Origin: Planctomycetota bacterium
GTDB taxonomy: Bacteria; Planctomycetota; MHYJ01; JACPRB01
NCBI GenBank assembly: GCA_016209705.1
Contig: JACQVR010000094.1
Coordinates: 64 to 64,063 of the forward strand
Length of the DNA: 64,000 nt
Direction: 5' to 3'
The notes beneath the pieces were generated by a model. That model saw only the letters and a program-made list of their open reading frames with translations. It made no database searches and was not told the origin of the DNA. Numbering within the stretch: the stretch's first letter is position 1; each line of letters opens with the position of its first letter. Both the position numbers and the translations under genes were made by a program. Positions 1,444 to 63,383 of this stretch are shown piece by piece.

Positions 1444-2487
1444 ATGTCCGCAAAGACCATGACAAACCTCGACGAGTATCGCGCGGTCCGTGACGGAGCC
1501 GGAATCTCCCGCATCGGCTGGCGCGGCGTTCTCGAGCTCACGGGGCGCGATCGGGTGCGGTTTCTCCACAATCTCAGCACGAACGACGTGCTCCTGCTCG
1601 CGACGGGACGGCCGGGCGCCTCCTTCGCCAAAGGCGAGCGACTCGACCTTTCCAGGACCAAGGCGGGTCCGGGCCATTACAACACGCTCGCCAATCGCCA
1701 AGGCAAGCTGGTGGCGGAGTTCAAGGTGCGGATGCTGGAAGACCGCATCTGGCTCGACATCGATCGCGCCGCCCTTCCCGCCGCGATGGACGCGTTGGGC
1801 GGGATGATCATCATGGACGACGTGACACTCGCGGATCGAACGGCGGACTTCGCGCTTCTGCGCCTCGACGGGCCGAAGGCGCGCGACGTGCTGGCCAAGG
1901 CGGCCGGCCCCGTGGCCGACCTGCCTGAGTTTCAATTTTCGATGATCGAGGACCTGCTCGTTTCTCCTTTTTCGCTGATCGGCATGCCGGGATACGACCT
2001 CCAGATCGCCGCCAGCCGTGCCTCGGACGTCTTCGAACGGCTCGCCGCCGCCGGGTCGCGCGAAATCGGCGAGGACGTTCTCGAGACGCTCCGCATCGAG
2101 CACGGCTTCCCCCGATGGGGCGTGGATCTCGACTCGACGATGCTTCCCTTGGAATCCGGCTTGGAGCCCATCGCGGTCAGCTTCACCAAAGGATGCTATC
2201 TCGGCCAGGAAGTGATTCAGCGCGTGAAGACGTACTCGGAGGCCCCGCGCCAGATGGTGCAGCTCGTTCTCGAGACTTCGGAGATCCCGGCCTCCAAGGA
2301 AATCCGCGTGGACCATTCGGCCGCCGGTCGCGTCACGAGCGTGGCGTACTCGCCGCGCTGGAAACGCGCCGTCGCCTTGGGGCTGATTCGCAAGGAACAC
2401 CAGGCGCCGGGAACCCGCGTGACGATCGGCGCTGACGTTCCGGCGGAAGTCCGTGCCCTTCCGTGGCACTCCGGCGCGCGCGCCTGA
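1444..2487 (+). CDS. ygfZ: YgfZ/GcvT-family folate-binding protein (tRNA-modifying YgfZ-like).
   Basis: The KGCYLGQE hallmark is present near the C-terminus, with an aminomethyltransferase-like fold signature. The start was chosen at ATG 1444 because the upstream part of ORF 1339 overlaps the fumC start. Confidence 0.7.
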   Translation: MSAKTMTNLDEYRAVRDGAGISRIGWRGVLELTGRDRVRFLHNLSTNDVLLLATGRPGASFAKGERLDLSRTKAGPGHYNTLANRQGKLVAEFKVRMLEDRIWLDIDRAALPAAMDALGGMIIMDDVTLADRTADFALLRLDGPKARDVLAKAAGPVADLPEFQFSMIEDLLVSPFSLIGMPGYDLQIAASRASDVFERLAAAGSREIGEDVLETLRIEHGFPRWGVDLDSTMLPLESGLEPIAVSFTKGCYLGQEVIQRVKTYSEAPRQMVQLVLETSEIPASKEIRVDHSAAGRVTSVAYSPRWKRAVALGLIRKEHQAPGTRVTIGADVPAEVRALPWHSGARA

Positions 2488-2988
2488 TTATTTCTTCTTT
2501 TCCCCGTCCTTTTCTTGCGACGGCTCCACGAACGAGACGTCGTGCTTCTTGAGGATGTCCCGGAACTTGGCTTCCAGCTCCGCGGCGGACGTCACGCCCT
2601 TTCTCCCGCGATAGGGAATCGCCTCGTGGATTTTCTTGTCGGGTGAGACGAGCCACAGGATCTGTCCGCCGTTCCAGCCGTCGGTCTCTTTCCAGAGCTC
2701 CGGCTCGATTTTTTCGCCCTTCTTGCGGGGCGTCCGGGGATGCCACGTCAGGACGGGGTAGAAATTCGTTTCGATGACCTTCTTGATCCGTTCGTCGAGA
2801 AGCGAACCGTTCTCGAATTTCTGGCAGGACGGTCAGCGCGGCCATTCTTTGTAGATGAGGACCCATCGCGACGTCTTCTCGTCCTGGGCCTTCTCGAAGG
2901 CCTCCTCGGACGACATCCATTTGATCTCGTCGATCCGATCGCCCGCGGCGACCGCCGCCGCCATGCCCAACCAGAGCATCGTCTTCAT
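2488..2988 (-). CDS. Secreted thioredoxin-fold (Thioredoxin_7/DsbD-gamma-like) protein with an in-frame TGA (complement 2833-2835) at the first position of a U-P-S-C (UxxC) redox motif. Candidate selenoprotein.
   Basis: The gene starts at ATG 2988, preceded by a GGGGG RBS, and encodes a signal peptide MKTMLWLGMAAAVAAG. Translation continues ...IKWMSSEEAFEKAQDEKTSRWVLIYKEWPR-TGA-PSCQKFENGSLLDERIKK... through to TAA at 2488. The segment after the TGA has no start codon of its own. Confidence 0.55.
2795..2816 (-). promoter_or_regulatory. Candidate bacterial SECIS hairpin, 16 nt downstream of the TGA at 2833-2835.
   Basis: Sense strand reads UCGAGAA-CGGUUCGC-UUCUCGA. This is a 7-bp perfect stem whose apical loop contains GGUUC. 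Confidence 0.4.
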
Positions 2989-3157
2989 GATCTACCCCCT
3001 TGAAGTCGTTTCTGGTTATACGGGCGAACTCCGGGATGCGCGCCAAAAGACTTTTCCCCCTGACGAGGGACGCGGGACTTGGGGGGTGGAACGGGCACCT
3101 TCGTCGACTTCGCTCAAGGCACGTCGCCCGCCGGGAAGCCGCTTTTCTTGCGGCGAC

Positions 3158-6364: not shown

Positions 6365-6604
6365 ATGATTCGCACGCAACGCATCCAAAAGGTCGGCAAC
6401 AGCGCGGCCGTGCTGCTGCCCAAGGATTGGCTGCGGGGGCACCGTCTTCGAGCGGGGGCCAAGGTGACGGTCGAGGTCTCTGAGACCCGGCTGACCATCT
6501 ATCCCGAGCTGCAGGAGCGCGAAATCCGTGTCAACGCCGAATTCGGCCGCAGGGTGGACCGTTTTCTTCGAAAGCATCGAGCCATCCTGAAACGGCTGTC
6601 CTGA
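6365..6604 (+). CDS. AbrB/MazE/SpoVT-type antitoxin.
   Basis: Contains KVGNSAAVLLPK, a looped-hinge-helix signature. It is 79 aa and its stop overlaps the start of the Doc toxin gene. Confidence 0.75.
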   Translation: MIRTQRIQKVGNSAAVLLPKDWLRGHRLRAGAKVTVEVSETRLTIYPELQEREIRVNAEFGRRVDRFLRKHRAILKRLS

Positions 6605-6993
6605 TGCCGATCTTCTACCCCCCGGCCGTGGCCTTGCTCTATCTCCACGAGCAAGTCATCCGCGAATTCGGAGGATCCGGCGGATTGCGGGACCGCGGAG
6701 CTCTCGAAGGCGCAGCCGCTCGTCCCCGCGCGACGTTCGGCGGCCACCCCTTGTACGCGACGCTCCCCGAAAAGGCGGCGGCGCTCCTCGAGTCGATTTG
6801 CGTCAATCATCCTTTTGTCGACGGAAACAAACGCGTCGCGTTTTCCGCCGCGGGTCTTTTTCTCCAATACAACGGCCGCACGCTTGCGTGCGAAGAGGAC
6901 GAGGCGGTCGAATTCATGCTCGGCGTCGCGGCGGGGAAGCTCAGGAAAGAAGAGATCCGCATCTGGCTCCAGGAACACTCCCGCCCGCTCTGA
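6604..6993 (+). CDS. doc: Doc (death-on-curing) family toxin with a Fic-fold kinase.
   Basis: The HPFVDGNKRVA motif is present. It is 129 aa and translationally coupled (TGATG) to the upstream antitoxin. Confidence 0.85.
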   Translation: MPIFYPPAVALLYLHEQVIREFGGSGGLRDRGALEGAAARPRATFGGHPLYATLPEKAAALLESICVNHPFVDGNKRVAFSAAGLFLQYNGRTLACEEDEAVEFMLGVAAGKLRKEEIRIWLQEHSRPL

Positions 6994-10840: not shown

Positions 10841-11641
10841 CTACTCCCCCTCCCCGCGCTCCTTCCAGCGCCGGACCGCTTCCCGGCGCATCCGCTCCTT
10901 CGCCGGCCCCCACGATATTCGCGCGGCGTCCAATTCCCTCCGGAACGCGGCGTGCTCGAGATCGGGGACGGCGATTTGGCCGCACACCAACTTCCGAGGC
11001 CGCGGATTGGGCAGCAAGCGACCCTTCAGAAGATCGTCGTCGGATATGTCCTTCTCCGTGATGTGCTCCGACGCCCTGTTTCCATTCCAGCTCGGAAATC
11101 CTTCGACATGAGAGAGGGGGCCCGGCATCACCACGGTTCGATGAATCTCCAGACCGCCGATCAACTCCCTGAGGATGCGCTTCTTCAACTCGTCGCCCGG
11201 TTCTTCCCCCTCCCGTTTCTTCTCCCCCATCTTGACGGCGATCTCGATCTTGCAATCCACGCGCTCTGCGATGTCCAGCATGCACCCTTCCCCGGCTGGG
11301 CCGAATGCGAACTGGACGACGTTCTTCCCCTTCCTGAGCTTCAGGCGGCCGATGTCCTCGAAATAAAGGACCAGGGCGCAGGAACGCCATCCCCCGCGCT
11401 CCTCCTCCTGCGGCTCGGAGCCGCCTGAAATTCCTTCGCTCTCCTCCACCAGCGAAGCCATCCAGGCGTAGGCGTCTTCGGCACCATACAGGGCGTAATC
11501 GCTCGGAACGGAGAACCGCATCCGCAATTTTCCGGAGCCGTCGGGCAGAAGCGTCCACTCCTCGTCATACTTGAAGCAGCCGGCTCCCAGGAGCAACGCG
11601 CCGGCCGCCGCCGCCCAACGACCGAACCTGAAGGATTTCAT
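10841..11641 (-). CDS. Hypothetical lipoprotein, last gene of the ECF sigma operon.
   Basis: Lipobox LLLGAGC follows MKSFRFGRWAAAAG. The upstream part of track ORF 10841..12319 is antisense artefact. ATG is at 11641. Confidence 0.55.
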   Translation of the reverse strand: MKSFRFGRWAAAAGALLLGAGCFKYDEEWTLLPDGSGKLRMRFSVPSDYALYGAEDAYAWMASLVEESEGISGGSEPQEEERGGWRSCALVLYFEDIGRLKLRKGKNVVQFAFGPAGEGCMLDIAERVDCKIEIAVKMGEKKREGEEPGDELKKRILRELIGGLEIHRTVVMPGPLSHVEGFPSWNGNRASEHITEKDISDDDLLKGRLLPNPRPRKLVCGQIAVPDLEHAAFRRELDAARISWGPAKERMRREAVRRWKERGEGE

Positions 11642-12939
11642 TTGGGGAGACCGGAATTGAGGTGGTCGCACGCGATCTCCAATCGCCGGGTCTCCACATA
11701 GGCCGTCTCCAGTTCGCCGACGCGCGGGTCCGCGTCCCTCGGCGCCCGAAGTCGGAGCTCGATCAGAGGTCCCTCCCATTCGAGGCGCTTCCATTCCACT
11801 TCCAGGCCCGCCAACGCGTCCTCCGTGGAGGCGTATCCCCGGCGATACATGAGCTCCACGACCAACGCGTCGCGGAACACAGGAGCCACATCGTCCAGGA
11901 GATCTTCGGCGCGTTCCTCGGCGACATGGGCCATCAGCTTGATCATGGAAGCCGAAACGGCTTCGGAGTGCCGGATCAAATCGCCGAGCGACCCGGTCCG
12001 GCCATCCTCCATCAGGATGCCGACGCGCCGGCAAAGATCCGGATGCACCGTCACCAATTCGGAGAAGCCTTGACTCTGAACGGCGACTTCGAGCGTCGGC
12101 CGTTCGGGCCCCCCTTCCTCGATCATCAGGCGCACGACGCCGTCGTTGAATTGCTTGCACTCCATCGCCTTCATGAGGCCCCCCACGTCCGCGCGAACCG
12201 CGATGAGCAGGACGGCGTCCTCCCTCGCTTCGGACGGGGTCTCGGCATCCTGCCTCCACAGGGCCAGATGGCGCACGTACCGTTTCGCCGTGGGTTCCAG
12301 GGCGGTCGTCTGGGTCCATGCGTTCTTGGACGCCTTGAACAGCGCCTTCTTCGCGGCGACCCTTCGAGCCACGTTTCGGGAATCGATCTCGTCCAGCGCA
12401 TCCTGCGGCGAGATCTCGACGGGGGGATAATCCTTGGCCACGATTTCTTCCAGCGCGAGGGTGTGGAGATTCAGGGCGCCCTCGAACAGGGTCGTGGAGG
12501 CCACGACGGGGCGCGCGGCGATCTCGTCTAATCTTTCCTCGATCGATTTGGCCAGCGCGGTCTTGTATTCCTGGACTGTCCTTTCGGCGACGTCCGGAGC
12601 GGGCTTCGTCTCATCGGCCTTCCAATACCGCATCCCACCCCACAAGGCGACCGCGGCGGCGGCCGCACCGGCGCTCCGGAGCGCCCATCGACGGAACGCG
12701 CGGGAGGGTGACGCCAGGCGAGACACGTAATCGCGACGGCGTCGCGGGTCCGGCCGATGGACGGAAGCGCCGAGCTGCACGGCGCGCGCCAGGATCCGCC
12801 ATTCCTCCTGCATCTTGGCGAACAACGCCGCGCACGCCGGGCATTCCGACGCGTGGGACCGCGCATCGCGCTCCCGGACCGCGTCGAGCCGGCGATCCAG
12901 CAATTCGGCCGCGCGGGCGGAAAATTCGTCACACCGCAT
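11638..12939 (-). CDS. Anti-sigma factor (zf-HC2 N-terminal domain, single TM, periplasmic C-terminal domain).
   Basis: The N-terminus reads SHASECPACAALF (HxxxCxxC). It overlaps the upstream ECF sigma stop and carries a TM segment near residue 100. Confidence 0.7.
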   Translation of the reverse strand: MRCDEFSARAAELLDRRLDAVRERDARSHASECPACAALFAKMQEEWRILARAVQLGASVHRPDPRRRRDYVSRLASPSRAFRRWALRSAGAAAAAVALWGGMRYWKADETKPAPDVAERTVQEYKTALAKSIEERLDEIAARPVVASTTLFEGALNLHTLALEEIVAKDYPPVEISPQDALDEIDSRNVARRVAAKKALFKASKNAWTQTTALEPTAKRYVRHLALWRQDAETPSEAREDAVLLIAVRADVGGLMKAMECKQFNDGVVRLMIEEGGPERPTLEVAVQSQGFSELVTVHPDLCRRVGILMEDGRTGSLGDLIRHSEAVSASMIKLMAHVAEERAEDLLDDVAPVFRDALVVELMYRRGYASTEDALAGLEVEWKRLEWEGPLIELRLRAPRDADPRVGELETAYVETRRLEIACDHLNSGLPK

Positions 12940-13540
12940 AGAGACCTTCCAGCAAGCCCCTCAGCTTCTGCCTCGCGCTGAACAGGCGGGACTTGACGGT
13001 TCCTTCCGGAATATCCAAGGCCCTCGCGATTTCGGCGTAACTCAGCTCCTCGAAATGGAACAGCTCCAGGATGAGCCGATCGTCCGCGCCGAGTCGCCGG
13101 AACGCTCTTCTCATGAGCTCGTCCGTCTCGCCGGGCGCCCCGACCGGAGGGCTGACCGCTTCCACCTGAATCCTGGCGGCCCGACGAAAGCGCGCGTCTT
13201 GCTGCTGGCGTTTGAGCCACTGTCTCTTGAGGATGCCCACCAGCCAGGTGAAAATCCCCGACTCCCCTCGAAAGCGCGCGATCGCTTTCAACGCGACCGT
13301 GAATGTCTCCTGCGTGAGATCTTCCACAGCCTCCCGATCATGGACCAACGCGCATGCGACGCGGAACAGCCGGTCGTAATGCGTCTCGACCAGCGTCCGG
13401 AGCGCGGAACGGTCTCCCCTCCGAGCTCGTTCCACGAGCCGGCCGTCGCCGATCGAACCCGGTACAGGCGGAATCGCCCGGCCGGATTTCTCCGACTCCC
13501 GGGCCGACGATTCCCTGCGGGTGGTCACAGATTCTTCCAT
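12929..13540 (-). CDS. RNA polymerase ECF (sigma-70 family) sigma factor.
   Basis: Regions 2 and 4 are present, reading DLTQETFTVALKAIARF ... LSYAEIARALDIPEGTVKSRLFSARQKL. Confidence 0.85.
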   Translation of the reverse strand: MEESVTTRRESSARESEKSGRAIPPVPGSIGDGRLVERARRGDRSALRTLVETHYDRLFRVACALVHDREAVEDLTQETFTVALKAIARFRGESGIFTWLVGILKRQWLKRQQQDARFRRAARIQVEAVSPPVGAPGETDELMRRAFRRLGADDRLILELFHFEELSYAEIARALDIPEGTVKSRLFSARQKLRGLLEGLYAV

Positions 13541-22306: not shown

Positions 22307-23062
22307 ATGAGAACGCTGCTTCGGCTCAGCTTCGGGGTGGCGCTGACCGCGTCAGGCTGCCATTTCCGATCGCAGGATGACCCAGCCCAGGAGCCCCGCG
22401 CGGCGGCCGCAGCCGTCGCGAACATCCCGGCTCTCGACCGACAAATCCCCGATGTTCTCGAATCCGCCACATTCGCGGTCGGCTGATTCTGGGATGCGGA
22501 CGCCCGGTTCGGGACCGTCCCCGGCGTCGTGCGCACGCGCGTGGGATACGCCGGCGGAACGCTCGCGAATCCCGCCTATGACCACATAGGCGACCATCTC
22601 GAGGCGATCCAGATCGACTACGATCCGTCGCGAGTCACGTACGAGGATCTCCTGGATCTCTTCTGGGAGATCCATGATCCCTGCCCGCCGCGCTGGACCC
22701 GCCAGTACATGTCCGTCATCTTCACGCACAACGAGACGCAACGGGAACTCGCGGAGGGATTCAAGGCGCGCGAGGACGCCCCGGGCGCGATCATTCCGAC
22801 CAAGATCCTCCCGTTGACCCGGTTTTATCCGGCGGAGGACCGTCATCAAAAGTACGTGCTGCGTCAGATAGAAGAGCTGATGCGGGAGTTCCGCGCCATG
22901 TATCCCAGGGAGGCCGACTTCGTGAATTCCACGGCGGCCGCGCGCGTCAACGGATTCGTGGCCGGCCTCACCCTAGCGGAACGGATCGAAGCGGTGATCG
23001 ATCAATTAGGGCTTTCTCCCGAGGGTCGGCGACTGCTGCGATCCTTCGCCCTTCCGCAGTGA
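22307..23062 (+). CDS. msrA: Peptide methionine sulfoxide reductase MsrA lipoprotein with in-frame TGA (22484-22486) at the catalytic Cys position. Candidate Sec-MsrA.
   Basis: A GGGAGG RBS precedes signal/lipobox MRTLLRLSFGVALTASGC. Translation continues ...ESATFAVG-TGA-FWDADARFGTVPGVVRTRVGYAGG... (GCFWG becomes GUFWD). The rest of MsrA, including DPCPPRW, is in frame through to 23062. Confidence 0.7.
22498..22520 (+). promoter_or_regulatory. Candidate bSECIS hairpin, 11 nt downstream of the msrA TGA.
   Basis: GGACG-CCC-GGUUC-GGG-AC-CGUCC folds as a bipartite stem with an apical loop GGUUC. Confidence 0.45.
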
Positions 23063-59460: not shown

Positions 59461-60162
59461 TCATCCGATCAGATGCGTGTAGTCCCGGAAAGGCGCTCGG
59501 CAGGGAGGGCCATCCGCAAACAGGAGCCGCTCTCCGTGTGAAGATCGGATGAGCATGAGCGAGGAAACGGTTCCGTACACGTCGCCGTGCTTGCAGACGG
59601 GTCGATCTCCTTCGTGCGAACGCAGGAAATCCGCCAGATCCGCCTCCGGCGGGACCGCGGAGTTCTCGGAAAAGCTCCGCAGAAACGTCCGCCGTTCAGG
59701 CATCGCGGGATCGTCGAGGTCGGCGTTCGTCGAAATGACGTGACGGCCGGGTCCGAACGAAGTTCTGCGAAGCTCGCCATCCCAGTGGAGGCACAACCCG
59801 ACGCCGTCCTTTTCCACCGCGACCATGTTGAAGCCGGCCACCGGCCGCTCGCCGACGCGCTTGGCGATAAGGGCTTCGACTCAGCCCAGCGCGCGGCAGT
59901 CCAGCGCCTCCAGAGCCACCAAACCGCGCGAGTAAGAGTCCGGCGTCTTCGCCGGAGTCCGGCGATTGGTCACGGCCACGACAAGTCCGTGGCGGTTGAC
60001 GGCGAACCACGTGCCGCCCCCCTCGAGGTCCTGAGGGCCGACAACGCCGGGTCGCAGCTCCTTCGGCGGCGCGGAGAGGCGCGCGACCCGTTCGTCCCGA
60101 TTGGCGCCGATCACCAGGGGGATGTCACGATCCAGGCCGACGAACAGGGTGAGCACGCACAT
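59461..60162 (-). pseudogene. NRDE (TANGO2-like, DUF833) family gene interrupted by an in-frame TGA (complement 59881-59883).
   Basis: The start reads MCVLTLFVGLDRDIPLVIGANRDERV (the MC...ANRDE signature). The frame then reads ...LEALDCRALG-TGA-VEALIAKRVGERPVAGFNMVAVEKDG... to 59461. No UxxC chemistry or GGUUC-loop hairpin follows the TGA. Confidence 0.45.
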
Positions 60163-60226: not shown

Positions 60227-60983
60227 CCCGCTGCCGAGTCTCGCAAGCGGGCCGTCGCTCCTGCGGAACCGTATTCTGGAACTTGAGAGGGCGCGGTAGG
60301 ATTCGGGGAAAGCACTGGAAAGGAGGAAGGTAAATGACCTGTCCCCAAATCCAATCCCAACGGCGCCGGTCGAACCGCGCGCGAAGCTCCTCCACCGCCG
60401 CTCGCGCCCGGTTCGCGGCCGCTTCGGCCTCGAGCATTCTGGTCCGCAGGAGTTCCAGTTCCGCGCGACGCGCCTCCTCGGCCCCCCGCTCCGCTTCCCG
60501 CTTCAGGATGGCGTCCGCTTCGCTTTCCAGAACCCACCGGCCCCGGAAGCGGACGAAACCTTCGGCCGCGCGGATTTCGACCTCCGTCATCCATCGCCCT
60601 TCATGCCGCCGGTAGCCGAGCGCGGCCCGAGCGCCGGCGTGATCGGGTTCTCGAACCACGACTTCCTCGAAGAGCTTGCGGGCGCGAGTGAGCAAATCCC
60701 GCTCGGCGGCCCACCGGGCCAGCCGGTATCGACCCTCCACATCGCCGGGCCGCAGGGCGGCCGCGCGCCGCTCCAACTCGTCAAGCGCCGAAGGCCCTCG
60801 GTGAATGCGGGCCACGTCGGATCGCCGGAGCGTGATCGTGCCATAATCCAACTCCACCACCACGCTCGACGCGGATTCCGTCACTCGGCCTTCGAACCTG
60901 GCTCCGTTGCGCAGTACGACTTCGTCCGCGCGCGCCGGCACGCGGAGAAGCGCAAGCCCCACGATCCACGCAGCGTATTTCAT
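60198..60983 (-). CDS. Hypothetical secreted protein (Arg/Glu-rich coiled-coil C-terminus).
   Basis: Signal peptide MKYAAWIVGLALLRVPARA is present. The extent is uncertain because the upstream track ORF portion is artefact and the 3' end overlaps the leader element. Confidence 0.4.
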   Translation of the reverse strand: MKYAAWIVGLALLRVPARADEVVLRNGARFEGRVTESASSVVVELDYGTITLRRSDVARIHRGPSALDELERRAAALRPGDVEGRYRLARWAAERDLLTRARKLFEEVVVREPDHAGARAALGYRRHEGRWMTEVEIRAAEGFVRFRGRWVLESEADAILKREAERGAEEARRAELELLRTRMLEAEAAANRARAAVEELRARFDRRRWDWIWGQVIYLPPFQCFPRILPRPLKFQNTVPQERRPACETRQRDAGTEGFSR

Positions 60984-61031
60984 GAGTCTATATATTATAA
61001 GCCTGGAGCGGCGCGATTGATTCGAAATACG

Positions 61032-63383
61032 ATGGGCGGCACGCGGACCCGTGCGGAAGCGGCGGGGATTTTCCTGCTCAGCGCCGCCTGTCTGTTCTTC
61101 GAGCTCCACGCGTTCCGATTCTTCACGCTTTCCCAATGGCACCATTTTGGAGCGCTCGTCGTTTCGCTGGCGCTCTTCGGCGGCGCGGCGGCGGGTGTCG
61201 CCCTCGCGCTGTCGAGGCGCCTTCGGCGGGCGGATCCCGGGACCGCTGCGGCGACATGCGCCGTCGCCATGGCGGTCTCCGCGTGGGCTGGCCTGCACGC
61301 CGCTTCCTGGATCCCTTTCCGTCCGGTTCGCGCCTCGGTGGGACCGGAAGAACTGGCGGCGGTGGCGGGATGGTATCTATGTTTCGGCGTCCCGATGTTC
61401 TTCGCCTCGTTGGGCGTGCTGTACTTCCTGCTCAGGCGTCCCGGGAACGTGGGGACGATCTATGCGTCCAATCTTCTCGGCGGGGCGGCGGGCGTAGCGT
61501 CGGCCCTTTGGCTGGAAAGCGCCCTCGACGGGCAGGAAGCGGCGGCAACGGCCGTTTTGGGCCTCTGCGCCGCCACGTGCTTCGTTCATCTTTCCCCGTG
61601 GCGGATCGGCGGCGCGTCCGTTTTCTTGCTGCTCGCCGCCTGGATGCGTCCCGAGATCCCGGTATCCGAATTCAAGGCCCTGGCGAGCCTGCCGAATACG
61701 CTGGGAGCGCGCAGCGTTCATTCTGGTCGTGCCGAAGGACATCACGTGGCGTTGTTGAAGGTTCCCACGTTTCGGCGCGCGCCGGGACTCTCGCTGGCCT
61801 ATCGTGGAAGGGTTCCGACCGGTCTGACCGTCGTGGTGGACGGCGATCGTCCCGATGTGCTTCTCGAACCGCCCGTGGATCCGGATCTGCCGGCCCATCT
61901 GCCGGGAGCCGTCGGCCACGAGCTGGCCCCCGAAGGGCGAGCTTTGATCCTGGACGCGGCGGGGAATCTGCCGGTCCTGACCGCCAACCGATATGGGAGA
62001 TCTTCGCTGGTGCATCTCCCTCCCGAAATCGCGGGCGTTTGGTTCGACGTTCAGGGCTTGGATGCCCGCCGATATTTCCCGGGGGCGACGGTGGTGACGG
62101 TTCCTCCGAGAACGCTGCTGCGGGCCCAACCCGACGGCTCGGTTGCGTATGTGGAGATCGCCTTGCGTGACGGCGCGGCCACCATGACGGCCGCTCTGGG
62201 ACAGCCGACCGAAGGCTATCTGTTCACGGTGGAAGCGTGGAGGGAAATGCTGAGGTGTCTGGCTCCGGACGGCCTCTTGTGCGTGACGCGATGGCTCGAA
62301 TTTCCTCCGCGCGAAAGCTTGCGGCTGGCCGCGACCGCCGTCGAGGCGTTGAAAGAAGGCGCTCCGGCGGAGCGCTGCCTCGTGGCGTTTCGGTCGCTCC
62401 AGACGATCACCTTTCTAATCAGGCCTCGAGGATTCGATCCAGCTTCGCGCCGACGGTTGGCCGAAGCGCTGCGAAGGCGATCCTACGAATTGATCTATCC
62501 TGCGGGAGGAGGCGGAGTTCATGCCGCCGCCCTCGATGCGTTGCTGCGCGATCCGGAGAAGTTGTACGCTTCCTATCCCTTCTACATACGTCCCGCGACG
62601 GATGACCGGCCCTTCCCATGGTTTTTCCTCAAGCCGGGACGACTGGGCGAGTTGCGCGAACGGGCGGACATCGGCTGGCGCCCCCTGCTGGACGGGGGGT
62701 TTCTTTTGGGAGCCGCGGCGGTGCAGGCGGCCTTCATCGGCTTGATCTTGATCGCGCTTCCCTTTCTGCGAGCGCGCGATCGGCCTCCCGTATCGTCGGC
62801 GGTCGCGCCCGGAATCTACTTCTTCTTGATCGGCCTCGGATTTCTATTCGTTGAAATCCCTCTCGCGCAAATCTTGACGCGATCGGCGCCTTCGGCCGCG
62901 CATGCGTTCGGACTCGTGATCGCGACCATGTTCCTGGGCGCCGGCACCGGTTCCTACTTGTCCGGACGTCTGAGACTGGATCGTGTGGCCGTCGTCGTGG
63001 CCGCCGCCGCGCTGGTGATCGGTGCGCAGTGTGCCTTGTTGCCGCGGATCGGGACGTGGACGCTGGTTCCGGGAGGGTGGTGGATGGTTGGATCCCTTCT
63101 GGGCGCGCTTCCCTCCGTGGCCATGGGCATGGCCATGCCGGGAGGATTTCGCTGGGCGGGGCCGCTCGGCTCTTGGGGACCTTCCTGGGGATGGGCGGTC
63201 AATGGATGCGCCTCGGTGGTTTCGCCGCTTTTGGCGTCGATCCTGGCACTCGGCGTCGGGTTCCGTTTTGTGCTCGGCGTGGCGGCGGTCCTATACGTTA
63301 CCGCCGGAGGAATGCTTTATTTCAAGTCCCGAGTCGTGAGTCCGGAGTCCCGAGTCGAAGACGAGCTATCGCCTTCTTCATGA
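61032..63383 (+). CDS. Polytopic membrane protein with a spermidine/spermine-synthase-like (aminopropyltransferase) domain.
   Basis: N-terminal TM helices are followed by a central methyltransferase-like fold (LLCVTRWLEFPPRESL) and C-terminal TM helices. The extreme C-terminus overlaps GAGTC heptamer repeats and may terminate earlier. Confidence 0.55.
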   Translation: MGGTRTRAEAAGIFLLSAACLFFELHAFRFFTLSQWHHFGALVVSLALFGGAAAGVALALSRRLRRADPGTAAATCAVAMAVSAWAGLHAASWIPFRPVRASVGPEELAAVAGWYLCFGVPMFFASLGVLYFLLRRPGNVGTIYASNLLGGAAGVASALWLESALDGQEAAATAVLGLCAATCFVHLSPWRIGGASVFLLLAAWMRPEIPVSEFKALASLPNTLGARSVHSGRAEGHHVALLKVPTFRRAPGLSLAYRGRVPTGLTVVVDGDRPDVLLEPPVDPDLPAHLPGAVGHELAPEGRALILDAAGNLPVLTANRYGRSSLVHLPPEIAGVWFDVQGLDARRYFPGATVVTVPPRTLLRAQPDGSVAYVEIALRDGAATMTAALGQPTEGYLFTVEAWREMLRCLAPDGLLCVTRWLEFPPRESLRLAATAVEALKEGAPAERCLVAFRSLQTITFLIRPRGFDPASRRRLAEALRRRSYELIYPAGGGGVHAAALDALLRDPEKLYASYPFYIRPATDDRPFPWFFLKPGRLGELRERADIGWRPLLDGGFLLGAAAVQAAFIGLILIALPFLRARDRPPVSSAVAPGIYFFLIGLGFLFVEIPLAQILTRSAPSAAHAFGLVIATMFLGAGTGSYLSGRLRLDRVAVVVAAAALVIGAQCALLPRIGTWTLVPGGWWMVGSLLGALPSVAMGMAMPGGFRWAGPLGSWGPSWGWAVNGCASVVSPLLASILALGVGFRFVLGVAAVLYVTAGGMLYFKSRVVSPESRVEDELSPSS

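What the first reader, a model, noticed from the sequence alone, without database searches (positions are those of the whole stretch)
2488..2988. Secreted thioredoxin-fold protein with in-frame UGA in a U-P-S-C redox motif: candidate selenoprotein downstream of fdhD
An ATG with a strong RBS opens a frame encoding a signal peptide and a Thioredoxin_7-like N-terminus. This frame runs into TGA exactly where the first Cys of the CxxC motif is expected (EWPR-U-PSCQKF). The frame then continues for 114 codons with good thioredoxin-fold sequence to a TAA. The portion after the TGA has no start codon, so it cannot be an independent gene. A 7-bp hairpin with a GGUUC-containing loop starts 16 nt after the TGA. 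Sec-for-Cys in thiol-disulfide oxidoreductases is an established selenoprotein class.
Basis: partly seen in the sequence, partly recalled or inferred. Interest (0 to 1): 0.8.

Follow-up and report, generated by a model that had tools for sequence, protein, structure and literature searches.

The report
Exported thioredoxin-like selenoprotein, unannotated family
The minus-strand gene at 2488-2988 is very probably a real selenoprotein, a small exported thioredoxin-fold protein whose active-site cysteine is replaced by UGA-encoded selenocysteine, and it belongs to a small family that public annotation truncates at the UGA and that has no cysteine-containing relatives.

Summary
The ATG is at 2988, an in-frame TGA is at 2835-2833 (codon 52), and the TAA is at 2490-2488. 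No start codon follows the TGA for 79 codons. A hairpin starts 16 nt after the TGA.

The selenoprotein reading is strongly supported. Seven distinct homologous DNA sequences from other metagenomes keep TGA at the same codon, always followed by xxC. At least five more are cut at that codon by gene callers. Both flanks evolve under purifying selection, while synonymous sites are nearly saturated. The hairpin is kept in all seven sequences and meets the published bacterial SECIS criteria. It uses codons that are rare in this genome.

A high-confidence AlphaFold model of a close homolog puts the Sec position at the N-cap of helix alpha-1 of a Thioredoxin_7/DsbD-gamma-like fold.

The same window holds a second candidate selenoprotein, an MsrA with TGA at its catalytic Cys.

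selA, selB, selD and tRNA-Sec could not be checked. They are not in the window, and the rest of the Planctomycetota MAG was out of reach.

The family matches no curated selenoprotein model. No Cys ortholog was found; one relative has Asn at that position. The link to fdhD is incidental.

Verdict: a new family of a well-known kind.

The parts
2488..2988 (-). Complete selenoprotein gene: 166 codons including the Sec codon UGA at codon 52, plus the TAA stop. GenBank annotates only codons 1-51 (MBI4565401.1, HY716_11970, hypothetical protein).
2994..3001 (-). Shine-Dalgarno-like AAGGGGGT, 5 nt upstream of the ATG
   Evidence: Read directly. Inferred function, not tested.
2941..2988 (-). Putative signal peptide (about codons 1-16, MKTMLWLGMAAAVAAG), ahead of the conserved mature N-terminus DRIDEIKW
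   Evidence: All nine N-termini have 1-3 basic residues, a 10-16 residue hydrophobic stretch and small residues just before GDRIDEIKW. Residues 1-10 have low pLDDT in the model. No signal-peptide predictor was available, so this is inferred.
2833..2835 (-). In-frame UGA read as selenocysteine (residue 52)
   Evidence: TGA is invariant in 7 distinct homologous DNA sequences, with dS of 0.35-1.5 between them.
2824..2835 (-). U-P-S-C redox motif (UxxC) at the thioredoxin CxxC position
2795..2816 (-). SECIS-like hairpin: a 7 + 2 bp stem with one bulged C and a GUU apical loop (2807-2805). There is a 16-nt spacer after the UGA, and the loop begins 25 nt after the UGA.
   Evidence: criteria from PMC13188914
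3045..3070 (-). Terminator-like hairpin plus T-run between fdhD and this gene. It suggests a separate transcript, but the evidence is weak.
   Evidence: 2 sites found against 1.4 expected, so not significant
22307..23062 (+). Second candidate selenoprotein in the same window: exported MsrA with TGA at 22484-22486 in the catalytic G-C-F-W motif (G-U-F-W-D). The hairpin at 22496-22518 has a CCCG-GUU-CGGG apex. It is relevant as evidence that this genome decodes Sec.

Best explanation
The locus is one gene for an exported protein of about 150 residues (mature form) with a Thioredoxin_7-like fold. Its nucleophilic active-site residue is selenocysteine.

The inferred mechanism has three steps.
1. 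During translation, the hairpin at 2816-2795 recruits SelB carrying Sec-tRNA(Sec), so the UGA at 2835-2833 is read as Sec instead of stop. This mechanism is inferred from the anatomy and is not shown.
2. The N-terminal signal peptide sends the protein across the cytoplasmic membrane (inferred).
3. The U-x-x-C pair at the N-terminus of helix alpha-1 then cycles between a selenol/thiol state and a selenenylsulfide state. In this way it acts as a thiol-disulfide oxidoreductase on exported proteins or small oxidants.

The protein most likely works in the reducing or isomerising direction, because its nearest structural relatives are DsbD-gamma, DsbH and cytochrome-c-biogenesis thioredoxins. The direction and the substrate are guesses.
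For: (1) TGA sits at the same codon in 7 distinct DNA sequences (window, L001, L003, L006, L008, L009, L010), each followed by xxC: PSC, SSC, GSC, PTC, GSC, GSC, GNC.
(2) Further members are split at that codon by gene callers. N-terminal fragments P0019-P0027 all end in ...YKEWP[RKS]. C-terminal fragments P0001, P0002, P0004, P0005 and P0006 start after it. Short-ORF-plus-fragment gene pairs are seen.
(3) Nei-Gojobori dN/dS is about 0.1-0.6 (mostly 0.1-0.45) on both sides of the TGA, with dS of 0.35-1.5.
(4) The first start codon after the TGA is at codon 132.
(5) The hairpin is kept in all 7 sequences. Stability is -7.9 to -13.3 kcal/mol, the loop is GUU, GUA or GAUC, and the loop starts 25 nt after the UGA. 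This meets the published bSECIS criteria: loop of 3-9 nt, stem of 4-16 bp, G in the first two loop positions, spacing of 16-37 nt, MFE <= -7.5.
(6) Only 1.5% of synonymous recodings of FENGSLLD drawn from this genome's codon usage fold as well. The hairpin relies on GGT and CTT, each about 8% of its codon family.
(7) The single non-Sec close relative (L004, AAC Asn) has a weakened hairpin at -5.4 kcal/mol.
(8) The AlphaFold2 model of that relative has pLDDT 89.9 and pTM 0.85. Strand 40-46 is followed by a helix starting at residue 51, and the Sec-equivalent residue 50 is at the N-cap.
(9) The top Foldseek hits are 2LST thioredoxin, DsbH, DsbD-gamma, ERp18 and AGR2/3.
(10) TGA is the normal stop codon in this genome: 18 of 34 Pfam-supported genes end in TGA.
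(11) A second TGA sits at a known Sec site in the same window, the catalytic Cys of MsrA, and thousands of Cys homologs exist for it.
(12) Some Planctomycetes are known to carry the full Sec machinery (PMC4807772).
Against: No selA, selB, selD or tRNA-Sec lies in the 64-kb window, and the rest of the MAG could not be reached. No Cys-containing ortholog was found in three large searches, although almost all known selenoproteins have many (PMC12013277). The nearest non-Sec relative has Asn, and the distant relatives have no redox motif at all. Covariation in the hairpin is weak: one compensatory pair, and 150 of 500 shuffles reach the observed value. Part of the hairpin's conservation follows from the conserved peptide FExGxLLD. 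No Rfam SECIS model matches. The Pfam Thioredoxin_7 score is only at threshold. The signal peptide, the direction of the redox reaction and the substrate are all inferred.
Confidence: 0.85

Rival explanations
1. The gene is a pseudogene, or the TGA is a sequencing or assembly error: a TGC/TGT Cys codon was misread or recently mutated to TGA.
For: A single-base change from TGY gives TGA. The window comes from a metagenome-assembled genome. GenBank annotates only the first 51 codons.
Against: TGA is present at the same codon in 7 distinct sequences from different samples and assemblers, with dS up to about 1.5 between them. Both flanks are under purifying selection. An independent Logan assembly gives the identical sequence. 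No TGY version exists anywhere in 5.8 billion proteins.
Confidence: 0.02
2. There are two products. The UGA is a true stop that releases a 51-residue exported peptide, and the downstream 114 codons are translated separately by re-initiation or coupling.
For: Gene callers split the locus in this way in every data set.
Against: The window has no ATG/GTG/TTG for 79 conserved codons after the TGA. The two parts are always adjacent and in the same frame. Together they form one thioredoxin fold: beta-1 lies before the stop and alpha-1 after it. Neither half would fold alone. The single relative without TGA (L004) is translated straight through.
Confidence: 0.03
3. The UGA is read through as a standard amino acid, either by genetic-code reassignment (Trp or Gly) or by SECIS-independent near-cognate suppression (Trp or Cys), and not as Sec.
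For: The Sec machinery was not shown for this genome. The two closest MsrA relatives in the database carry W at the equivalent column, which suggests that some pipelines translate such TGAs as Trp.
Against: 18 of 34 Pfam-supported genes in the window end at TGA, and their lengths match their families, so TGA is not reassigned. The codon sits at the nucleophilic position of a CxxC motif, where Trp or Gly would abolish the chemistry. A conserved hairpin with the right spacing and a G-first loop follows it.
Confidence: 0.05
4. It is a real selenoprotein, but not a disulfide reductase. It could be a periplasmic peroxidase or sulfenate reductase, a metal- or metalloid-binding protein, or a redox partner dedicated to one neighbouring enzyme, for example maturation of the FdhF/YdeP oxidoreductase.
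For: The canonical cis-Pro position before beta-3 appears to hold Q, V, I or E in this family. I read this from alignment A4 and did not verify it in three dimensions. Neighbours in other loci are often redox enzymes: FMN reductase, an OYE flavoenzyme, a Redoxin, XdhC and FdhD. The distant clade is fused to a TlpA-like domain.
Against: No neighbour is conserved across loci, and most neighbours lack signal peptides. The nearest structures are thiol-disulfide exchangers.
Confidence: 0.25

Closest known systems
Thioredoxin_7 (PF13899) proteins: DsbD C-terminal domain, Chlamydia DsbH, Thermus thioredoxin 2LST, ERp18/AGR2
   Same: The predicted fold is the same (Foldseek probability 1.0, target-normalised TM 0.52-0.67). 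The redox motif is at the N-terminus of alpha-1. The U aligns with the first Cys of the CPYC of 2LST. The protein is exported. The Pfam hit is at threshold.
   Different: Sec replaces the first Cys. Sequence similarity is marginal (27.2 bits; 10-20% identity to the structures). There is an extra beta-hairpin and a highly conserved LWLVSPDKK motif. The canonical cis-Pro appears to be absent (not verified in three dimensions).
Known thioredoxin-fold UxxC selenoprotein families: Trx, Grx, thiol:disulfide interchange protein PF13098, DsbA-like, DsbG-like, SaoT and the HUIPC-motif family (table in PMC13188914)
   Same: The same design principle: Sec at the N-terminal position of CxxC in a thioredoxin fold, UGA followed by an in-frame bSECIS hairpin, and often a periplasmic location.
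   Different: None of their NCBIfam models matches at E <= 0.1. Those families have abundant Cys homologs. This one has none in the databases searched.
VPGUxxT family thioredoxin-like (seleno)protein, NF041383 and NF041382
   Same: This is the only curated selenoprotein model with any signal. A weak N-terminal similarity over about 60-100 residues includes the region around the Sec.
   Different: The score is 24.6 bits against a cutoff of 275. The motif is WP[RKS]-U-xxC rather than VPGUxxT. The protein is 166 residues against profiles of 287-349 positions. It is not a member.
UGSC-containing selenoprotein family (NF041046)
   Same: Several members of the present family (L003, L008, L009) read U-G-S-C.
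   Different: The L003 protein gives no hit to NF041046 at E <= 0.1. The resemblance is limited to the tetrapeptide.

Membership tests
Bacterial selenoprotein gene (Sec-decoded UGA) | The in-frame UGA is conserved at the same codon in orthologs | tested here: met
   7 distinct DNA sequences all have TGA. At least 5 more are inferred from ORFs truncated at that codon.
Bacterial selenoprotein gene (Sec-decoded UGA) | Protein-level purifying selection continues in frame on both sides of the UGA | tested here: met
   dN/dS is about 0.1-0.6 (mostly 0.1-0.45) both before and after the TGA in all 21 pairwise comparisons. No start codon follows the UGA for 79 codons.
Bacterial selenoprotein gene (Sec-decoded UGA) | [quoted passage not shown] | tested here: met
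   The loop is GUU, GUA or GAUC. The stem is 9 bp with at most one bulge. The loop starts 25 nt after the UGA. Stability is -7.9 to -13.3 kcal/mol in all 7 sequences. Statistical covariation is weak. bSECISearch itself was not available.
Bacterial selenoprotein gene (Sec-decoded UGA) | Homologs with Cys aligned to the Sec (a Sec/Cys pair) | tested here: not met
   No Cys ortholog appears. One close relative has Asn (AAC). Distant relatives have N, T or R at this position and no Cys.
Bacterial selenoprotein gene (Sec-decoded UGA) | The genome encodes selA, selB, selD and tRNA-Sec | not testable with these tools
   None is in the 64-kb window. There is indirect support from a second TGA at the catalytic Cys of MsrA in the same window, and from Sec machinery known in some Planctomycetes.
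Bacterial selenoprotein gene (Sec-decoded UGA) | Selenium is physically incorporated (75Se labelling or mass spectrometry) | not testable with these tools
   This needs an experiment.
Thioredoxin_7 (PF13899) / thioredoxin fold | The Pfam HMM score is at or above the gathering threshold | tested here: inconclusive
   27.2 bits against a cutoff of 27.0 with U replaced by C. Relatives P0003, P0007 and P0010 score 17-20 bits, below the cutoff.
Thioredoxin_7 (PF13899) / thioredoxin fold | A thioredoxin fold with the CxxC motif at the N-terminus of helix alpha-1, after strand beta-1 | tested here: met
   The model has pLDDT 89.9. Strand 40-46 is followed by a helix from residue 51, and the Sec-equivalent residue is 50. 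The best structural matches are Thioredoxin_7-type proteins. The model is of the Asn-containing homolog P0003 (56% identical), not of the window protein itself.
Thioredoxin_7 (PF13899) / thioredoxin fold | A conserved cis-proline loop facing the active site | not tested
From alignment A4, the residue before strand ILWLV is Q, V, I or E and not P. This is my own reading.
VPGUxxT thioredoxin-like selenoprotein (NF041383) | The NCBIfam score is at or above the cutoff, and the VPGUxxT motif is present | tested here: not met
   24.6 bits against a cutoff of 275. The motif here is EWPR-U-PSC.
Selenoprotein MsrA (PF01625), for the second gene at 22307-23062 | A PMSR domain with the TGA at the catalytic Cys of GCFW, and Cys homologs at that column | tested here: met
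   PF01625 matches at 3.9e-39. The alignment shows FA[LV]G-[C/W/TGA]-FW, with Cys in P0035, P0038, P0043 and P0122. A hairpin of -12.2 kcal/mol has a GUU loop starting 21 nt after the UGA.

The most novel reading that the evidence does not exclude
This is a previously undescribed selenoprotein family in which Sec appears to be obligatory. It is exported and Thioredoxin_7-like, and at least two of its hosts are Planctomycetota. No cysteine ortholog exists. Its nearest relatives carry Asn or have no redox motif at all. One reading of this is that a selenium-based UxxC centre was installed on a scaffold that was originally not redox-active, rather than arising by the usual Cys-to-Sec swap. Standard Sec/Cys-pair searches cannot find such families, so others like it may remain hidden.
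Probability: 0.45. Interest if true: 0.6.

Novelty: new member of a known kind. Interest (0 to 1): 0.45.

Why it matters
The finding corrects a systematic annotation error. GenBank and every metagenome gene caller split this gene into a hypothetical protein of about 50 residues plus a fragment.

It adds a family to the bacterial selenoproteome, which stands at about 111 families in BSepDB (PMC13326102). It also adds to the small set of predicted periplasmic Sec oxidoreductases, here in Planctomycetota.

The absence of any Cys homolog is unusual, since almost all selenoproteins have many (PMC12013277). It shows a blind spot of SECIS-independent search pipelines.

The chemistry and the recoding mechanism are otherwise textbook. 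For that reason this is an incremental finding, not a conceptual one.

Tried and rejected
1. Rfam: the gathering-threshold scan of the whole window and two permissive scans around both TGAs gave no SECIS family, only noise hits. Rfam's bacterial SECIS models are lineage-specific, so this says little.
2. Single-sequence fold energy of the 62-71 nt region after the UGA is not unusual against shuffles. I dropped it as evidence and used comparative and synonymous-recoding tests instead.
3. Covariation counting on the 7-sequence hairpin alignment gave 95% of cells paired but only one compensatory pair, which is not significant against shuffles.
4. I searched for the Sec machinery by running Pfam on about 40 window ORFs and ARAGORN on the window and on four of the fetched loci (L001-L004), and found none. 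An attempt to extend beyond the window through FdhD (P0028) failed.
5. A conserved operon with fdhD or the FdhF/YdeP oxidoreductase is rejected. Neighbours differ in every locus: hemA plus Redoxin in L001; XdhC, convergent, in L003; FMN reductase in L007 and L008; an OYE flavoenzyme in L009; IS21 in L010; MarC and a Na/H exchanger in the P0004 contig.
6. Membership in the VPGUxxT and UGSC selenoprotein families is rejected on NCBIfam scores.
7. The exhaustive HMMER search and the structure prediction could not take the full-length window protein with U or C at residue 52. I used the post-TGA part and the natural Asn homolog P0003 instead.
8. A systematic scan for further TGA-interrupted coding frames in the window found only adjacent-gene junctions besides the target. 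The MsrA case was found by eye, from an ORF that begins with FWDADARFG.

Full report
**Observation**

On the minus strand an ATG at 2988 follows AAGGGGGT (3001-2994). It opens a frame that reads MKTMLWLGMAAAVAAGDRIDEIKW...WVLIYKEWPR, then TGA (2835-2833, codon 52), then PSCQKFENGSLLDE... for 114 more codons to TAA at 2490-2488. After the TGA the first in-frame ATG/GTG/TTG is a GTG at codon 132.

A hairpin UCGAGAACG-GUU-CG-(C)-UUCUCGA lies at 2816-2795, exactly 16 nt after the TGA. With U written as C the protein reaches Pfam Thioredoxin_7 at 27.2 bits against a cutoff of 27. fdhD (3976-3158) and an FdhF/YdeP-family molybdopterin oxidoreductase (6288-3997) lie upstream on the same strand.

**Source and current annotation**

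The 51-codon N-terminal ORF is GenBank MBI4565401.1, 'hypothetical protein HY716_11970', from a Planctomycetota MAG. FdhD is MBI4565402.1, and the contig is 125,981 bp long. An independent Logan assembly of run SRR12113401 (L005) is identical across the gene, including the TGA. The gene is thus truncated at the UGA in public annotation.

**Comparative evidence for recoding**

The family is rare. A word-indexed search of 5.8 billion proteins found two hits. An exhaustive HMMER scan of 1.84 billion representatives, run with the post-TGA part as query, found 13. A profile search found 15.

Nearly all close hits are fragments that begin after the Sec codon or end at it. P0001, P0002, P0004, P0005 and P0006 begin downstream of it. 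P0019-P0027 all end in ...YKEWP[R/K/S].

I fetched the DNA for seven distinct members: the window, L001, L003, L006, L008 (identical to L007 in this region), L009 and L010. In each, the codon is TGA and is followed by xxC: PSC, SSC, GSC, PTC, GSC, GSC, GNC.

Nei-Gojobori estimates give dN/dS of roughly 0.1-0.6 (mostly 0.1-0.45), both for the 35 codons before the TGA and for the 66-115 codons after it. dS is 0.35-1.5. So the TGA has been kept while synonymous sites approached saturation. TGA is otherwise the main stop codon here: 18 of 34 Pfam-supported genes in the window end with it. That excludes genome-wide reassignment.

**The hairpin**

All seven Sec-type sequences keep UCGAGRRCGGURCGCUYCUCGA, or the perfect palindrome UCGAGAACGGAUCCGUUCUCGA in L003. 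The spacing is the same in all. Stability is -7.9 to -13.3 kcal/mol, and the apical loop is GUU, GUA or GAUC, beginning 25 nt after the UGA.

This meets each published bSECIS criterion: loop of 3-9 nt, stem of 4-16 bp, G in the first two loop positions, 16-37 nt spacing, MFE <= -7.5 (PMC13188914).

Because the peptide FExGxLLD is itself conserved, I asked whether the RNA structure goes beyond what the protein requires.
- Only 1.5% of synonymous recodings of FENGSLLD drawn from this genome's codon usage fold as well.
- The hairpin depends on GGT and CTT, each about 8% of its codon family.
- The one close relative without TGA (L004, AAC = Asn) has a weakened hairpin of -5.4 kcal/mol.

Formal covariation is weak. 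One A-U to G-C compensatory pair was seen, 95% of cells are paired, and 150 of 500 shuffles reach the observed value. No Rfam SECIS model matches.

**Structure and the position of Sec**

phmmer against PDB sequences aligns WVLIYKEWPR-U-PSCQKF with VMVYFHSEH-C-PYCQQM of the Thermus thioredoxin 2LST. The hit is weak (E = 0.13), but U falls on the first Cys.

The tools would not accept the window protein with U or C at residue 52. I therefore modelled residues 1-168 of the natural homolog P0003 (56% identical to the post-TGA part of the window protein, Asn at the Sec column), using a 23-row family alignment. The model has mean pLDDT 89.9 and pTM 0.85. Strand 40-46 (RWVLIYK) is followed by a helix from residue 51, with the Sec-equivalent residue 50 at its N-cap. 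This is the canonical thioredoxin active-site geometry.

Foldseek against the PDB returns 2LST, DsbH, DsbD-gamma, a cytochrome-c-biogenesis thioredoxin, ERp18 and AGR2/3, which are the Thioredoxin_7 group.

All N-termini have a short basic and hydrophobic leader ending in small residues before the conserved GDRIDEIKW. This suggests export, but it is an inference, as no predictor was available.

**Does the genome decode Sec?**

The window has no tRNA-Sec. Pfam annotation of about 40 ORFs found no selA, selB or selD. The remaining half of the contig and the rest of the MAG were out of reach.

There is indirect support.
- The same window contains a second TGA at a classic Sec site, in an exported MsrA (22307-23062, PF01625 at 3.9e-39). 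Its TGA at 22484-22486 replaces the catalytic Cys of GCFW.
- Thousands of Cys homologs exist for this MsrA. The two closest database relatives show W at that column, probably a TGA translated as Trp.
- The MsrA hairpin (-12.2 kcal/mol) has the same CGGUUCG apex with a GUU loop, starting 21 nt after the UGA.
- MsrA is an experimentally verified selenoprotein family (PMC13188914), and several Planctomycetes carry the full Sec machinery (PMC4807772).

**Context and function**

The fdhD link is not conserved. The neighbours elsewhere are:
- hemA upstream and a Redoxin (CNHC motif) downstream in L001;
- a convergent XdhC in L003;
- an NADPH-FMN reductase in L007 and L008;
- an OYE flavoenzyme in L009;
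- IS21 in L010;
- MarC and a Na/H exchanger in the P0004 contig.

A terminator-like hairpin (3070-3045) lies between fdhD and the gene, though such sites are no more frequent here than expected by chance.

Distant relatives (28-36% identity: P0007, P0010, P0013, P0015-P0018 and L002 from another Planctomycetota MAG) lack both Sec and Cys, with NPES, NSRT or TRDG in place of UxxC. Most of them carry an N-terminal TlpA/Thioredoxin_8-like segment.

My best reading is an exported selenol/thiol oxidoreductase that cycles through a selenenylsulfide. It most likely acts in the reducing or isomerising direction, like its structural neighbours DsbD-gamma and DsbH. The direction and the substrate are guesses.

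**Comparison with known families and novelty**

The NCBIfam release of June 2026 holds models for most curated selenoprotein families. It gives only a 24.6-bit hit, against a cutoff of 275, to the VPGUxxT thioredoxin-like selenoprotein family, and nothing for the UGSC, SaoT, HUIPC, GOS_C or Trx7/PDZ families. The 2026 review table lists none that matches. No paper in the library links PF13899 with selenoproteins.

So this is a new family of a well-known kind: a thioredoxin-fold UxxC selenoprotein with an in-frame bSECIS.

The unusual feature is that no Cys ortholog was found in three very large searches, whereas almost all selenoproteins have many (PMC12013277). That would explain why searches based on Sec/Cys pairs missed it. 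It also raises the possibility that the redox centre was gained on a scaffold that was not redox-active.

**Verdict**

My confidence that this is a genuine selenoprotein gene is about 0.85. The specific function is less certain. Interest is moderate: it is a clean and correctable annotation gap and an addition to the selenoproteome, but the mechanism is conventional.

Noticed in passing
window 22307-23062 (+); TGA at 22484-22486; hairpin 22496-22518: A second candidate selenoprotein. It is an exported MsrA with a lipoprotein-like leader (MRTLLRLSFGVALTASGC), and TGA replaces the catalytic Cys of GCFW (FAVG-U-FWD). A bSECIS-like hairpin has the same CGGUUCG apex as the target gene. The ORF after the TGA begins directly with FWDADARFG, so gene callers would lose the active site.
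   Followed up: yes
P0031 and P0032 (closest MsrA relatives): Both show Trp at the catalytic-Cys column (FALG-W-FWG). This probably means that their contigs also carry TGA there and that a gene caller translated it with an alternative code. The DNA was not fetched.
   Followed up: no
L004 167-1366 (P0003, ENA ERZ23498363): This is the only close relative without TGA. It has AAC (Asn) at the Sec column but keeps the second Cys (ERPK-N-RSC). Its ORF runs on for about 230 extra residues with no Pfam match, which could be a real fusion or a lost stop on a 1.5-kb contig. Going from TGA to AAC needs three base changes.
   Followed up: partly
P0007, P0010, P0013, P0015-P0018; L002 10001-10381: A distant clade of the same domain has no Cys or Sec at the active-site positions (NPES, NSRT, TRDG). 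It is usually fused behind a TlpA/Thioredoxin_8-like segment. The motif LW[LAI][VI]SPD is conserved across both clades, so it probably serves a function other than redox.
   Followed up: partly
L010 2580-2928: This family member sits next to IS21-type transposase genes (rve, IstB). It departs from the family sequence after ...VLAWHPKKPR and then meets a stop. It may be a copy disrupted by the insertion sequence.
   Followed up: no
window 6365-6604 (+) and 6604-6993 (+): A two-gene pair with overlapping stop and start. The first is a 79-residue AbrB/MazE-like protein (MIRTQRIQKVGNSAAVLLPKDW). The second is a 129-residue protein with a Fic/Doc motif (HPFVDGNKRVAF). It looks like a Phd/Doc-type toxin-antitoxin module. 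I recognised it from the sequences only and ran no family search.
   Followed up: no
window 2485-2490: The convergent GCV_T-like gene (1339-2487, +) ends at the base immediately next to the TAA of the selenoprotein gene (2490-2488, -). The two genes abut tail to tail with no spacer. GC-rich palindromes (GGCGCGCGCGCC, GTGCC...GGCAC) lie inside the end of the GCV_T-like ORF.
   Followed up: no
window 60300-63380 (+), 11641-12960 (-), 59464-59880 (-): Long ORFs with coding-like composition have no Pfam match at E <= 1e-4 (1027, 440 and 139 residues). The 139-residue ORF is joined in frame through a TGA (59883-59881) to a 239-codon upstream open frame. I took this to be an ordinary junction between adjacent genes and did not examine it further.
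   Followed up: no
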